DNA of 64,000 bases from Glycera tridactyla. Taxonomy: Eukaryota. Where the stretch lies: contig OZ286465.1 of assembly GCA_965644265.1 (NCBI GenBank), positions 70,866,001 to 70,930,000 of the forward strand. The letters run 5' to 3'. Position numbers: made by a program. Below are positions 49,001 to 61,000 of this stretch, in pieces. Within the stretch, counting starts at the first letter, position 1. Each line of letters starts with the position of its first letter.

Positions 49001-52000
49001 TTCATGATGTGTGGCCTCTGAATGTTTCATGATGTGCGGCCTCTGAATGTTTCATGATGTGTGACTGCTGAATGTTTCATGATGTGCGACCACTGAATGT
49101 TTCATGATGTGTGGCCTCTTGAATGTCTCATGATGTGCAACCAATGAATGTTTCATGATGTGCGACCGCTGAATGTTTCATGATGTGTTCAAAGTTTCAT
49201 GATGTGCAGCCACTGAATGTTCCATATGCGCTGTCATTGAATGTTCCATGATGTGCAACCGCTGAATGTTCCATAATGTGCGGCCACTGAATGTTCCATG
49301 ATGTGCGACCGCTGAATGTTTCATGATGTGCGGCCTCTGAATGTTTCATGATGTGTGACTGCTGAATGTTTCATGATGTGCGACCACTGAATGTTTCATG
49401 ATGTGTGGCCTCTTGAATGTCTCATGATGTGCAACCAATGAATGTTTCATGATGTGCGACCGCTGAATGTTTCATGATGTGTTCAAAATTTCATGATGTG
49501 CAGCCACTGAATGTTCCATATGCGCTGTCATTGAATGTTCCATGATGTGCGACCACTGAATGTTCCATGATGTGCGACCGCTGAATGTTCCATGATGTGC
49601 GACCGCTGAATGTTTCATGATGTGCGACCGCTGTATGTTTCATGATGTGCGACCGCTGAATGTTTCATGATGTGCGGCCTCTGAATGTTTCATGATGTGC
49701 AGCCGCACAGCAATGATTATTTATTGAGTTGACATGGCACTGATCAGAGAATCAATCACAAAGCTAAATCAACGTGACCATCTCTCAACATTCATCATGA
49801 TGCATACCCAATGCATGTGAGAGTGAGTGCTTCTCTTCCCTTGCCTCAACCACCACCAACTTCCCGTACTCATGCCATTCAACTTGTCCCATGCCCTGGT
49901 TGGTTGTTCCAGTGGGCCACTGTTCAAAAGATTTGTTTGTTTGTTTGGGTTTAACATCCTTTCAACCTCCTTACATTATATTGGACTTTGAGTGCCGAAA
50001 AAGAGAGGCACCGCTGTCTGGGGAGAAGGGGGGCGGGTATCCCGCACAGAAACAGACTCCCATACACATAGTCAGCCTTTGATATTCCAGTCAGCATACA
50101 CTGGGTTAGCATGCATACAATTAATACAGTCGAACCTCCTCTAAAGACCACCTCCTATAAAGACCGCCCTGAACTGCGACCGTGGTAGTATTTTCAACAG
50201 TAAATGACCTTTCTATAAAAACCACCTTCCTATAAAGACCACATTTTGATGCGACTGAAGGCGGTCTTTATAGGGAGGCTCGACTGTATTTGTTTGAACA
50301 CTCCCAAATTCATGCAAATAATTGAATATGTAGATTCATATCCATCTGTTGGTTGATTGGATGTTTGATTAGCTAGTTGGTTGACTTGCAGGCTGATCAG
50401 CTGGTAGATTGGTAGGTTGGTCAATTGGTTGTTAAATAGCTTGTTTCAACTCATGGGATTACTTAAGCAAAGCTATATGCTGTGGAGTATTCTCAGGGGC
50501 AAATGAAGTGGGAAAAGGCAAACAAATTTATCTATGATGTGCACAGAGGGCACAAACAATTCAGCATACTTCTCTGATACGACCATAGAAATTCATATCT
50601 CCGGGTTAGACAATATACAATAGACCATGAATCGCATGCTATGCATCAACTTTTTTCTCCCCATTGGTCTCTTGTGTCTTCCAGCATCTTATCACATGGA
50701 TGTGGCATTTTCAGTGAAGTATCAGGTGTTGAGTATTGCGTGTGATACTTCACAGCTGTGCGAGAACTACTTTCTGTTGATTTCTCCCCTAATCCATGTG
50801 ATAAAAGCAAGAATATATGGCCCTGAGGTAAAAGAACAATACCAAACTCGGTTTGAATTTTGCTAGATATCACTCGGCCTTCAGCCTCGAGACATGTGGC
50901 AAAACTCACACCTCATTTGGTGTTGCGTTTTTACTTCACAGCCATATATTCTTGCTATATGACAGCATTTCACTAATGTAAACATAAACATAGGCCTTTT
51001 AACCCTTTAGCCCTCAAACCGTGTAAAAACGTGTTTTTAGCACTCCCCCTCAAAGCGGGTGAAAACGTGATTGACAACATCGAGGTGCCGGTATTTTGTA
51101 AACAAACAGCCGTTCTGACGAAAATTGAGATCGTACACGAAAAAACGATGTCGTATGGAAAGCTTAGGAGTTGCTTGTCAATCTGGTATGAATAACGTGA
51201 TATAATGTTCAATATTGAGTGAGGATTGACCCAAAACAATGCATGATGTCAGGGAAAACCACTGCATTCCGCGCCATTTTGTGCCCAATGATGATTTGAC
51301 AGCTCTCTAAAAGATCGATCATAACTTCCCAAAAAACGTTTTTTAACCACTAAATACCTTGATGGGGTGAAAGACAAGAGTCTCACGAATTCAGAGATAT
51401 GTTTATTGTGGGGAAATATGCTATATTTCCCAAGAAACAAGCGTGTGATCACGGAGTTGTCAAGCACCAACGTGCGAGTTCGTTGACAAGCGCCAGAAAC
51501 GGAGGTCGGAAGTGGCTTTGTTTACATGACGTTAGGGGAGCTTTCCCGCCAAAATAAACATAACCACGTGTTTTTCCATACCCTAAAAACTCTTGAATGT
51601 CACTTTTAGACATAGTTGGATTGTTATTCTGCCCTAAAAAAAACGTTTCATCGATGCCTAATTAAGAGAAATCATAATAAGGACTGAATAGTGTATGGAG
51701 TTCGAGTTGTCAAAGGAGTTGAAGTAAGAATATAGACTGTTCAGCTTGGGGGTTAAGAAAACAATTTTTATGTGTTTCAAATGTGTCAAAAACAAAAAGG
51801 AACATCATCTGAGGCATTCTAGGAGCAATATGAGTGACGTTGGAGATGAATATCACTTTGTTATGGAATGTGCCATATCATACTTCTCTCCCTGAAGTTA
51901 CAAACATCATATGCGATATGGAAAGCCTGGGAGTTGCTTGTCAATCTGGTATGAATATTGTGATATAATGTTCAATACTGAGTGAGGATTGGATGAAAAC

Positions 52001-58000: not shown

Positions 58001-61000
58001 GAATCCATAGTATTGTATTGTATCAAGTTCAAGTTGTATGTAGTGGCAATGATTGATAGCTTTCTTCTGTATGTGCCCAAAAATGATACTACCTTGACAC
58101 TAACATGGAAATCATGGCGATGAGAGCATATTCAAAACTGAAGTAAATTTTCCGTCAATAGCTCTTGTATATCATAACACCTGTTATGCAGAGTAACGTC
58201 TGTTGTGCCAGATATGACATTTTGTCAGAAACACAATGATTTTCCTTCAGTAATACACCACAATTAACAGGCATTGAGATACGCTTGACAGATGTCATCC
58301 TTATATTGAAGTCATTATGGTACTTCTATGTAAGAGGTGTTACTCAAGAACAGCTGGTCAAAATAACGTATGTTATGAATGTTTACCCTTTGAGCAGTCC
58401 TATCAGTATCAATTTGTCATATTCTCTCATGATGAATGCAGCTCTATCTGGTGAGGACATTGCTGGCTTGAAGTCTTTTGTGGAGCCATGAAAACATGAC
58501 AATTATAATATTTAGTAACATACGTTATGACAGGACATCTTTGCAATGTGGTCAATGTCACACCTGTTACAAAAATCCCTATCCATGATAAGCAGCAGTA
58601 ATGCAATTCAAGAAACATCTCAGATCAACATCTTCAGTTATGCTGTATCAATACAGGCACAATCAGTGATATTCATATAACTGAAAAACTAGCTATATGC
58701 ATTCGAACATAACAGGTGTTATTATTGACTGTCCAACATAACTTCTGTATGGAGAATTCTCATCATGTAAAATCTGATGGAGTGATCCAGCCTGATGATG
58801 AAAAAGTATTGATAACTGGACCCAACCTGAATGAGACAGGTGCTACTGATTCTTTTTTGAAAGAGAAAAGCCGTAATTTCATGACCTTCATAACATACGT
58901 TATGATTGACATGTCTATCATAGCGTATGATATTCTGTTCGTATGTCGAGTAAAACCAACTTATTCTGTGACAGAAGTGGCTTACATCAGATATGTTATT
59001 TTTTGTGAAGGAAGCTTGCAAATTATTCTGAAATAATGCAGAAAATGCATGGCTATTTCACTATCTATTCTTGTGATGATACTTCAAAATATATCAAAAG
59101 GTGATGTCAGAAAATGCATTATGTAGCTCAGCATAAACATGTGACAGAATGGTGTCATATCCATGAGATTGACAATGAAAACATGCACTGGTCTCATTCA
59201 TTATGATATATATCAGAAAAGTTATTTATTCTCTCCAAACACAGTGTTTTATTAGATCTTCCATGTCAAACATATGTTATGTTCCTACATGGTCAGTTTA
59301 AAGCTCTCCCAAGACTGAGTGGTTCATTAAGTTATCTTTTCCATACTGAAATTTCAAATTCAAGCTATTAGGACTCTGTTTGAAATTGGCCAAAAAGCAC
59401 TTGGGGATTTCTCAATGAATTATGTAGTTATGCCCTGTGATGTGTGTAACCTCATTTTCAGAGCAAACAATCTTCAGTTTCATTTTGCTCAGGACCCCTG
59501 CTATGACTTGTGTGGAAATGGTGCCAATCTGACAATATTTGATTTTGTACCTATATTGGGTGATTTTGTGCCCATGACATGACCTTGTTCAGGTTGTCAT
59601 AGAAACAGAAATCCTCATTTCCAGAGCAAACAACCCCCAGTTACATAATGCTCAGGACCCCTGCTATGACTGGTGTGAAAATGGTGCTGATCTGACATCC
59701 TTTGATTTTGTGCCTATTTTTGGATGATTTTGTGTGGTTATGACCTTGTTCAGGTTGTCATGGAAACAAAAATACCCATTTTCAGATCAAACAACCTTCA
59801 GTTTTATAGTGCTCAGTACCCCTGCTATGACTGGTGTGAAAATGGTGCCGGTCCGATAACCTTTAATTTTAGGCCTATTTTGGGTGATCATGTGCGTAGA
59901 CATAACCTTGTTTGGGTTGCCATGGGAACAACAATAATACATTTTTTGCCAAATTTTATTCGGTTTCACACTGCTCAGGGCTCCAGCTATGGCTGGTGTG
60001 AAAATGGGAATATGAGGAATATGAGGGCTAAATGATCCAACAACCTCCTATTTTGAGCCTGGACATGACCTTGAAAACAGATATCCAATTTTGGCTGCTT
60101 TTGTACCTGGACATGGCCTTCTTCAGGTTGCCATGGAAACAAAAATACTCATTTTCAGAGAAAATAACTTTCAGTTTCATGGTGCTCATGACCCCGACTA
60201 TGACTGGTGCAAAAACGGATAAAATATGACAGCCTTTGATTTTGGGCCTATTTTGGGTGCTTACGGGCCTGGACATGTCCTTGTTCAGGTCGCCATAGAA
60301 ACAGAAATCCTCATTTTCTGGGCAAATGACCTATAGTTCCATGATTCACATGACCCCCACTATGAGTGGTGCGAAAATGGATGAGATCTGACAAACTTTG
60401 ATTTTGAGTTCATTTTGGTCAATTTCATACCTGACATGACCTTGTTTGGGTTGCCATGGAGACAGAAATAATCCAATTTAGGGCAAATTACATCTGGTTT
60501 CACACTACTCAGGACCCCAGGTATGGCTGGTGTGAAAAATTGGGCAGATCTGGGAGACTTCTAATTTGGACCTATTTTTGGTGTTTTTTAACACAGGTAA
60601 TGGCTGTGTTTGGGTTGCCATGGAAACCAAATAATCATCTTCAACTAAAACCAACCCCAGGTCTCTGGTGCCCATCTACTGCACTATCATACATGTGGAG
60701 ATGGGGATGATTGAACAACTTTCATTTTCCCACAAAATTTAGCTGCAAGATGCCAAAAATAGACGCATTTCATTGTTGCCTAGCAACAAGAAAAATAATG
60801 ATTTGTAAAGAAAACACCCAAATCTGAGATGTTCAGATCATGACCAATGCAGCTGGCACAAAAACCCAAAATCACCCGACAATTTTTTTTTCTTCGAAAT
60901 TTTCAGTGAGGAGGAGAAGTGGTTCTCGCCACAGGAATATGAGGGCTAAAGGGTTAAAGAAACTTGTTGCAGCAGGGGTCAGTTCCATTCTGGGGACGAG

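What the first reader, a model, noticed from the sequence alone, without database searches (positions are those of the whole stretch)
51003..60953. Giant (~10 kb) piggyBac-ended element built from tandem arrays instead of a transposase
Seen: an exact 18-bp inverted match including TTAA brackets 9951 bp. The interior is a left arm of ~760-bp degenerate repeats, a middle AT-rich section, a right arm of ~162-bp repeats and at least five nested retroelement pieces, with no transposase ORF. Established: TTAA TSD with CCC...GGG termini is the piggyBac signature, and autonomous piggyBacs are typically only 2-3 kb. Inference: this is an unusually large non-autonomous piggyBac family that carries satellites and could disperse them and their binding sites around the genome.
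Basis: partly seen in the sequence, partly recalled or inferred. Interest (0 to 1): 0.7.

Follow-up and report, generated by a model that had tools for sequence, protein, structure and literature searches.

The report
Large transposase-less piggyBac-type element
A 10-kb stretch of repeat-rich DNA is bracketed by the exact end signature of a piggyBac-type jumping gene but has no transposase of its own. It is most likely an ordinary, if large, passenger-carrying copy that depends on an enzyme made elsewhere.

Summary
TTAA plus CCCTTTAGCCCTCA at 50999-51016 is mirrored exactly at 60940-60957, enclosing 9951 bp. Chance does not explain it.

No transposase domain was found: 0 of 110 ORFs inside and 0 of 132 outside.

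From left to right the interior holds:
- a left subterminal 23-nt direct repeat;
- 6.7 kb of degenerate long-period repeats with LINE fragments, all on the + strand;
- a degenerate 1-kb palindrome;
- eight 162-bp units, one carrying a 17-nt copy of the right terminus.

Neither end has a nearby partner. One non-autonomous piggyBac-superfamily element is therefore the best reading (about 0.7).

The repeats are 65-86% alike while the 36 end bases are perfect. Most of the repeat structure therefore predates the last insertion and travelled as cargo.

Not shown: other copies, an empty site, a matching transposase, or any spreading of satellites. No eukaryote genome could be searched.

Tandem arrays are common across this window. 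Repeat-carrying or very large TTAA elements are already known (Pokey, Xmix/Xstir, Teratorn).

Verdict: new member of a known kind, modest interest.

The parts
50999..51002 (.). Left TTAA (target-site duplicate)
   Evidence: Read directly. Part of the 19-nt perfect inverted pair.
51003..51016 (+). Left 14-bp terminal inverted repeat, CCCTTTAGCCCTCA
   Evidence: Exact reverse complement of 60940-60953.
51011..51069 (+). Left subterminal 23-nt direct repeat, two copies (51011-51033 and 51047-51069) 36 bp apart. The first copy overlaps the inner 6 nt of the terminal repeat.
   Evidence: 2 matches in the window, 0 in 100 shuffles.
51154..53337 (+). Younger long-period repeats (A about 320 bp, B about 450 bp) in the order A-B, A, A-B, part of B. 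Copies are 78-83% alike.
53289..54605 (+). Fragment of a non-LTR (LINE) retrotransposon: the end of the endonuclease domain, then the C-terminal third of the reverse transcriptase protein. It has stops and an internal deletion. A short 15-bp repeat lies at 54725-54753.
   Evidence: 1404 homologues, best E 2e-58 at 56-58% identity, carrying RVT_1 and endonuclease domains. Also.
54732..57918 (+). Older, more decayed A/B unit pieces (65-79% to the reference unit) interleaved with further LINE-like stretches at 55915-56025, 56210-56380 and 56776-56898
57926..58934 (.). Degenerate palindrome of about 1 kb, low in GC. It holds all five TAAC-N4-GTTA sites of the window (58175, 58364, 58516, 58710, 58891).
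   Evidence: score 37.5 against shuffles 14.3 +/- 3.4; 292 matches in 511 columns.
59405..60750 (+). Tandem array of eight 161-164-bp units. Mean column identity is 59%, and the best pair is 86% alike.
60016..60035 (-). Internal copy of the right terminus. 17 nt are identical to 60933-60949, but the final GGG and the TTAA are missing. It forms an insertion of about 22 nt in unit 4 of the 162-bp array.
60940..60953 (-). Right 14-bp terminal inverted repeat
60954..60957 (.). Right TTAA (target-site duplicate)
   Evidence: Read directly.

Best explanation
The stretch 51003-60953 is one copy of a non-autonomous DNA transposon of the piggyBac superfamily, inserted at a TTAA.

It encodes no transposase. 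It could move only if a piggyBac-type transposase made elsewhere in the genome recognised its 14-bp ends, and probably the repeated subterminal motif at the left end. That enzyme would cut it out and paste it into another TTAA.

Its bulk is passenger DNA: decayed long-period repeats with LINE fragments, a decayed palindrome and a 162-bp tandem array. Most of that repeat structure is older than the last insertion, so it was carried along rather than grown in place.

Shown: the ends, the flanking TTAA, the lack of a transposase, the internal anatomy, and the lack of partner ends nearby.

Inferred: that the two ends belong to one element, that it moved as a unit, and that a cognate transposase exists.
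For: 1. A perfect 14-bp inverted repeat starting CCCT is flanked by TTAA on both sides. It is far beyond chance.
2. It is the only one of 51 inverted runs in the window with that signature.
3. No other left-type or right-type end exists at up to 3 mismatches in 64 kb. The exceptions are a 17-nt internal fragment and one 3-mismatch hit inside a LINE reading frame. The other 10 of the 15 hits are 9 copies of one unrelated 147-bp array unit plus single hits at 21127 and 34174. Neither end therefore has a nearby partner.
4. The two ends face each other in the right order.
5. The left end has a 23-nt subterminal direct repeat that overlaps the terminal repeat. This is the kind of repeated end motif that the piggyBac transposase binds (passages of PMC5861402).
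6. The 14-bp repeat nearly matches that of coral piggyBac-type MITE family II, CCCTTTAAGCCCTA (Table 1 of PMC2872659; compared by eye).
7. The A/B units and LINE pieces occur only between the two ends in the whole window.
8. Age argument: the repeats are 65-86% alike. If they had diverged in place, the chance that all 36 end bases stayed unchanged is 0.07 for the youngest pair and 0.001-0.008 for the older ones.
Against: - No second copy, no empty site and no matching transposase could be sought, because no eukaryote genome collection was on hand.
- The only scans possible gave nothing: 0 matches in two pattern scans of bacterial and archaeal contigs, and 0 homologues of an array reading frame among proteins.
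- The left and right subterminal 200 bp share nothing beyond the 14 bp. There is no shared 8-mer in the inverted sense, and 5 shared 7-mers against 2.2 expected. The second inverted repeat of the classic insect piggyBac is therefore not seen.
- Tandem arrays are common in this window outside the element too. The interior could be ordinary local DNA that happens to lie between two ends.
- The age argument assumes neutral, equal rates.
- The 17-nt internal copy of the right terminus is not explained by the simple model.
Confidence: 0.7

Rival explanations
1. Two separate, truncated copies ('solo ends') of a short piggyBac-type family lie about 10 kb apart. What sits between them is ordinary repeat-rich host DNA that never moved with them.
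For: - Similarity between the ends stops at 14 bp.
- The window is full of tandem arrays and dispersed repeats anyway.
- Each end would carry TTAA whether or not the two belong together.
- Known piggyBac-type MITEs are short: about 100 bp in corals and about 750 bp in Daphnia.
Against: - Both inner ends would have to be lost without trace while both outer ends stayed perfect.
- The two would also have to lie in the one facing arrangement out of four.
- The A/B units and LINE pieces are confined to the interval between the ends.
Confidence: 0.17
2. A composite. Two neighbouring copies of one family recombined, or their outer ends were used together. The present unit is therefore a fusion, and the 17-nt internal right-end copy is a scar of it.
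For: - A 17-nt exact internal copy of the right terminus lies 920 bp inside, in the same orientation.
- The 162-bp array is split into two sub-arrays at that point.
Against: - The internal copy is only an insertion of about 22 nt within one repeat unit. It lacks the final GGG and the TTAA.
- No internal left end exists.
Confidence: 0.08
3. An assembly artefact or a chance match: the two ends are brought together by a mis-join, or they mean nothing.
For: - Repeat-rich regions are prone to mis-assembly.
- The window has five N runs, though none lies in or next to the element.
Against: - Chance is excluded.
- There is no N and no abrupt break in composition inside 51003-60953.
Confidence: 0.05

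Closest known systems
Non-autonomous piggyBac-superfamily elements, e.g. coral CMITE family II (PMC2872659; passages and Tables 1-2 seen)
   Same: Both have a TTAA duplication, a 14-bp terminal repeat starting CCCT and no transposase. The coral repeat CCCTTTAAGCCCTA differs from the one here by about one inserted base and a shift (compared by eye).
   Different: CMITEs are about 100 bp with a conserved 75-bp core and are present in many copies. This element is 9951 bp with repeat cargo, and its copy number is unknown.
Pokey of Daphnia, a piggyBac element carrying tandem repeats (PMC3849761; abstract and passages seen)
   Same: A piggyBac-type element with a length-variable internal region of roughly 200-bp tandem repeats (2-5 copies) and further captured tracts.
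   Different: Pokey is autonomous, targets a 28S rDNA site, and its repeats come from the rDNA spacer. Here there is no transposase. No rRNA or other Rfam family occurs in the window. The origin of the repeats is unknown.
Xmix/Xstir of Xenopus: tandem repeats riding on a TTAA-targeting MITE of the Kolobok superfamily (PMC6004289; passages seen)
   Same: A TTAA-flanked non-autonomous element whose internal segment is an amplified tandem repeat.
   Different: Kolobok and T2-MITE ends start AG/AGGRR. The ends here start CCCTTT.
Classic insect piggyBac end architecture (PMC5861402; passages seen)
   Same: A short terminal repeat next to TTAA, with further internal copies of an end motif on the left side.
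   Different: In the insect element a second 19-bp repeat is shared by both ends. Here no second motif is shared between the two ends.
Very large piggyBac units: Teratorn in fish and engineered giant piggyBac (PMC5822658 and PMC3239208; search listing and start of abstract only)
   Same: They show that piggyBac ends can bracket cargo well above 10 kb.
   Different: Their cargo is a herpesvirus genome or cloned DNA, and a transposase is supplied or encoded. Here the cargo is non-coding repeats.

Membership tests
piggyBac superfamily (by its ends) | TTAA target-site duplication on both sides | tested here: met
   50999-51002 and 60954-60957.
piggyBac superfamily (by its ends) | Terminal inverted repeats of 12-19 bp beginning CC[C/T]T (definition from passages of PMC2872659) | tested here: met
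   14 of 14 bp, CCCTTTAGCCCTCA.
piggyBac superfamily (autonomous member) | Encodes a piggyBac-type DDE transposase | tested here: not met
   No transposase family match in 0 of 110 ORFs of 45 aa or more in 50500-61500 at E up to 1, nor in 0 of 132 further ORFs in the rest of the window. It can only be a non-autonomous member.
piggyBac superfamily (non-autonomous member) | A transposase-encoding relative with matching ends in the same genome | not testable with these tools
   No eukaryote genome collection was available. The 14-mer occurs in no paper text searched.
piggyBac superfamily (mobile copy) | Further copies at other TTAA sites, or an empty site with a single TTAA | not testable with these tools
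   There is no other copy and no paralogous empty site inside the window. Two scans of bacterial and archaeal contigs gave 0 matches.
Classic piggyBac end architecture | A second, internal repeat shared by both ends | tested here: not met
   No shared 8-mer in the inverted sense within 200 bp of each end. The left end alone has a 23-nt direct repeat.
Kolobok superfamily / T2-MITE | TTAA target with ends starting AG/AGGRR (PMC6004289) | tested here: not met
   TTAA is present, but the ends start CCCTTT.
MITE | Small, uniform size (usually under 500 bp; definition from passages of PMC2872659) and high copy number | tested here: not met
   The length is 9951 bp. Copy number could not be tested.
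Satellite DNA carried by a transposon | The same repeat unit also forms arrays elsewhere in the genome | tested here: inconclusive
   The 162-bp unit has no significant match outside the element in the window. The best is a 49-bp stretch at 73% to the 147-bp array, E 0.013. The rest of the genome could not be searched.

The most novel reading that the evidence does not exclude
This is one member of a family of large non-autonomous piggyBac elements that carry their repeat arrays from place to place and so seed new satellite loci. The repeated motifs inside would act as extra landing pads for the transposase or for a host DNA-binding protein. These motifs are the 162-bp units, the internal copy of the terminus, and the five ATAAC-N4-GTTAT palindromes.
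Probability: 0.12. Interest if true: 0.55.

Novelty: new member of a known kind. Interest (0 to 1): 0.3.

Why it matters
If other copies exist, this would be a clean natural case of a cut-and-paste element moving ready-made tandem arrays. That is one proposed route by which satellite DNA spreads to new chromosomal sites.

As it stands it is a single, plausibly old, non-coding copy in a repeat-rich region. It is useful for repeat annotation of this genome but does not challenge what is known of piggyBac elements.

Tried and rejected
- **LINE origin of the A/B repeat units.** Each B unit carries a 'GDE.HF..EC'-like stretch, which from memory I took for a retrotransposon zinc knuckle. Support was not found:
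  - 0 of 121 stored proteins have the motif: the 120 fetched LINE proteins plus the window's own 808-aa ORF.
  - The 90-aa reading frame 52846-53115 has 0 hits among 1.84 billion representatives.
  - It has no Pfam match.
- **Coding potential of the minus-strand ORFs of 90-101 aa in four A units.** Differences are spread evenly over codon positions (18/15/18 for A1 against A2), and there is no Pfam match. I treat them as non-coding.
- **Other copies via predicted proteins.** The array reading frame 59706-60032 gave no candidate.
- **Organism or gene context.**
  - The 808-aa ORF at 1171-3594 gave no Pfam match, no homologue and only weak atlas look-alikes at 0.80 or below.
  - The 229-aa ORF right of the element gave nothing.
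  - Rfam and tRNA scans of the window found 0.
- **Shared motif between the left end and the 162-bp units (GTGYRAAAAYGG).** It is enriched (8 against 2.2 expected). Six of the 8 hits are copies of one repeat unit, and all lie in the same orientation as the left end. I make nothing of it.
- **GGGTTAA at 51750-51756 as a nearby right end.** The 7-mer occurs at chance frequency, and the bases before it do not resemble the terminal repeat.
- **Target-site duplication for the LINE fragment.** The bases before and after it are only loosely alike, so none could be defined.
- got no answer from the script machine and was rerun in lighter form.
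Full report
**Source.** I take the window for a non-human animal genome.
- It has no match to any Rfam family, so no 7SL-derived repeats, and no tRNA.
- CpG observed/expected is 0.43-0.45.
- Its one clear protein relic is a LINE. The few homologues that carry a name come from a limpet, a pearl oyster, an 'invertebrate metagenome' and a bird.
- The species was not determined.
- Five N runs lie at 13-40 kb, far from the finding, and were left alone.
Reading-frame pieces were searched one by one.

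**1. The observation.**
- The left boundary reads TTAA (50999-51002) then CCCTTTAGCCCTCA (51003-51016). The right boundary reads the exact reverse complement (60940-60953) then TTAA (60954-60957).
- The repeat finder reports one perfect 19-nt inverted pair, which includes one extra flank base.
- The 14-mer at up to 2 mismatches gives 3 hits against 0.27 expected, and 0 of 100 shuffles reach 3.
- In 20 first-order Markov copies of the window, inverted exact pairs of 18 nt or more within 20 kb average 0.05.
- The real window does hold 51 inverted exact runs of 15 nt or more within 25 kb. Most belong to one dispersed repeat, and this is the only run with TTAA+CCC at its edge.

**2. Anatomy, left to right.**
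- (a) *51003-51153, left subterminal region.* It has no relative elsewhere in the window. It contains a 23-nt direct repeat at 51011-51033 and 51047-51069, 36 bp apart. The first copy overlaps the inner part of the terminal repeat (0 expected).
- (b) *51154-53337, long-period repeats.* 51167-51920 matches 52296-53052 at 83% over 759 bp. An extra half unit lies at 51930-52258, and a partial unit at 53046-53337.
- (c) *53289-54605, a LINE fragment on the + strand.*
  - The 188-aa reading frame 53697-54260 has 1404 homologues at E of 0.001 or better among 1724 candidates.
  - The best is E 2e-58 at 56-58% identity. The homologues carry reverse-transcriptase and endonuclease domains.
  - Its own Pfam matches are only marginal, at E 0.06.
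- (d) *54732-57918, older unit pieces.* They are 65-79% alike to the reference unit and interleaved with three more LINE-like stretches: 55915-56025, 56210-56380 and 56776-56898. For this mapping I used 33 of the 120 fetched proteins, those of 900 aa or more. The many weaker tblastn rows (E above 0.01) I regard as noise.
  - All 14 unit hits and all LINE hits lie on the + strand, and none lies outside 51167-57918 in the whole window.
- (e) *57926-58934, a decayed palindrome.* It shows 292 matches in 511 alignment columns. The core arms score 37.5 against 14.3 +/- 3.4 for 200 shuffles. It holds all five TAAC-N4-GTTA sites of the 64-kb window. GC is 0.36, and 0.33 in the next 470 bp.
- (f) *59405-60750, eight units of 161-164 bp*.
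- (g) *Unit 4 carries an insertion of about 22 nt.* Its 17-nt core is identical to the right terminus (60016-60032 = 60933-60949) but lacks the last GGG and the TTAA.
- (h) *60751-60953, right subterminal region.* It has no relative elsewhere.

**3. No transposase.**
- No transposase family matched in 0 of 110 reading frames of 45 aa or more in 50500-61500 at E up to 1.
- The same holds for 0 of 132 further frames in the rest of the window.

**4. One element or two?** The decisive test, other copies or an empty site, could not be run. What the window itself says:
- No further end of either type is present at up to 3 mismatches. The only exceptions are the 17-nt internal fragment and one 3-mismatch hit inside the LINE reading frame. 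The other 10 of the 15 hits are 9 copies of one unrelated 147-bp array unit plus single hits at 21127 and 34174.
- Two separate short elements would need four ends, and only two are seen.
- Two solo ends would need both inner ends lost while both outer ends stayed perfect, in the one correct facing arrangement.
- The interior blocks are confined to the interval between the ends.
- Against a single element:
  - The two subterminal regions share nothing beyond 14 bp.
  - Tandem arrays occur throughout the window (116, 147, 78, 62, 73, 25 and 425-bp periods), so repeat-rich DNA between two ends is not in itself telling.
- I put one element at about 0.7.

**5. Age argument.**
- The repeat copies are 65-86% alike.
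- If they had arisen in place after insertion, the chance that all 36 bases of the two TTAA-plus-repeat ends stayed unchanged is about 0.07 for the youngest 162-bp pair. It is 0.04 for the youngest long units and 0.001-0.008 for the older ones (neutral, equal rates assumed).
- If this is one element, most of the repeat structure was therefore already inside it when it last moved. The spreading of satellites does not, because no second locus was seen.

**6. Comparison with known elements.**
- The hallmark of piggyBac ends is 12-19 bp repeats with CC[C/T]T and TTAA. Autonomous coral elements measure 2.2-3.7 kb (passages and tables of PMC2872659).
- That paper's MITE family II has a near-identical 14-bp repeat (compared by eye).
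- Kolobok elements also use TTAA, but their ends start AG/AGGRR (PMC6004289), so that family is excluded.
- Tandem repeats inside TTAA elements are already described. Pokey carries 2-5 copies of a 200-bp repeat plus captured tracts (PMC3849761). The Xstir repeats ride on the Xmix MITE (cited in PMC6004289).
- The insect piggyBac transposase binds repeated motifs at both ends and at an extra internal left site (PMC5861402). That is a fair analogy for the left subterminal repeat here, but no motif shared by both ends was found.
- Units far above 10 kb are known (PMC5822658 and PMC3239208; listing and start of abstract only).
- The exact 14-mer occurs in none of the paper texts searched. Two further searches for piggyBac elements with internal tandem repeats brought up only the papers named above.

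**7. Verdict.** This is a real, well-formed pair of piggyBac-type ends around 9951 bp of non-coding, mostly repetitive cargo. It is most likely one non-autonomous element, a new member of a known kind. Family size, mobility, the mobilising enzyme and any role in spreading arrays remain open.

Unexplained details worth a look if the genome becomes searchable:
- the internal 17-nt copy of the right terminus;
- the five evenly spaced 14-bp palindromic sites in the middle;
- the strict + orientation of all LINE and unit pieces.

Noticed in passing
window 1171-3594 (-): An 808-aa open frame rich in Ser/Asp/Glu and Cys, looking like one large exon. It has no Pfam family, no homologue of similar length and only weak atlas look-alikes at 0.80 or below.
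   Followed up: partly
window 4363-5097; 9834-10391 and 11775-12479; 13040-13193; 19106-19227; 29335-30330; 47966-49706; 62125-64000: Many unrelated tandem arrays with periods of 116, 147, 78, 62, 73, 25 and 425 bp. The 425-bp array is 99% uniform and runs off the window end. The 25-bp array (71 copies) ends 1.3 kb left of the element.
   Followed up: partly
window, e.g. 3801-3983, 18575-18863, 20893-21044, 27960-28054, 36225-36404, 38769-38938, 50125-50274: A dispersed repeat, present in both orientations, accounts for most of the 51 exact inverted runs in the window. Two short hairpin-like pairs of it lie at 3801/3957 and 38769/38918.
   Followed up: no
window 50806-50956: A 151-bp near-palindrome (73-nt arms, 75% complementary, 5-nt loop) lies 42 bp left of the element's TTAA. 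It may be a small foldback element.
   Followed up: no
window 61011-61697 (+): A 229-aa open frame starts 54 bp right of the element. It has no Pfam match and no convincing atlas look-alike. A 116-aa frame lies on the opposite strand.
   Followed up: partly
window 60454-60502 against 10182-10376 and 12107-12448: A weak 44-49-bp resemblance (71-73%, E 0.013-0.1) between one 162-bp unit and the 147-bp array 40 kb away. It is not significant.
   Followed up: partly
window 13266-13528, 15845-16013, 25243-25752, 35207-35963, 39667-39879: Five runs of N, 1912 bases in all. They were left untouched, and none is near the finding.
   Followed up: no
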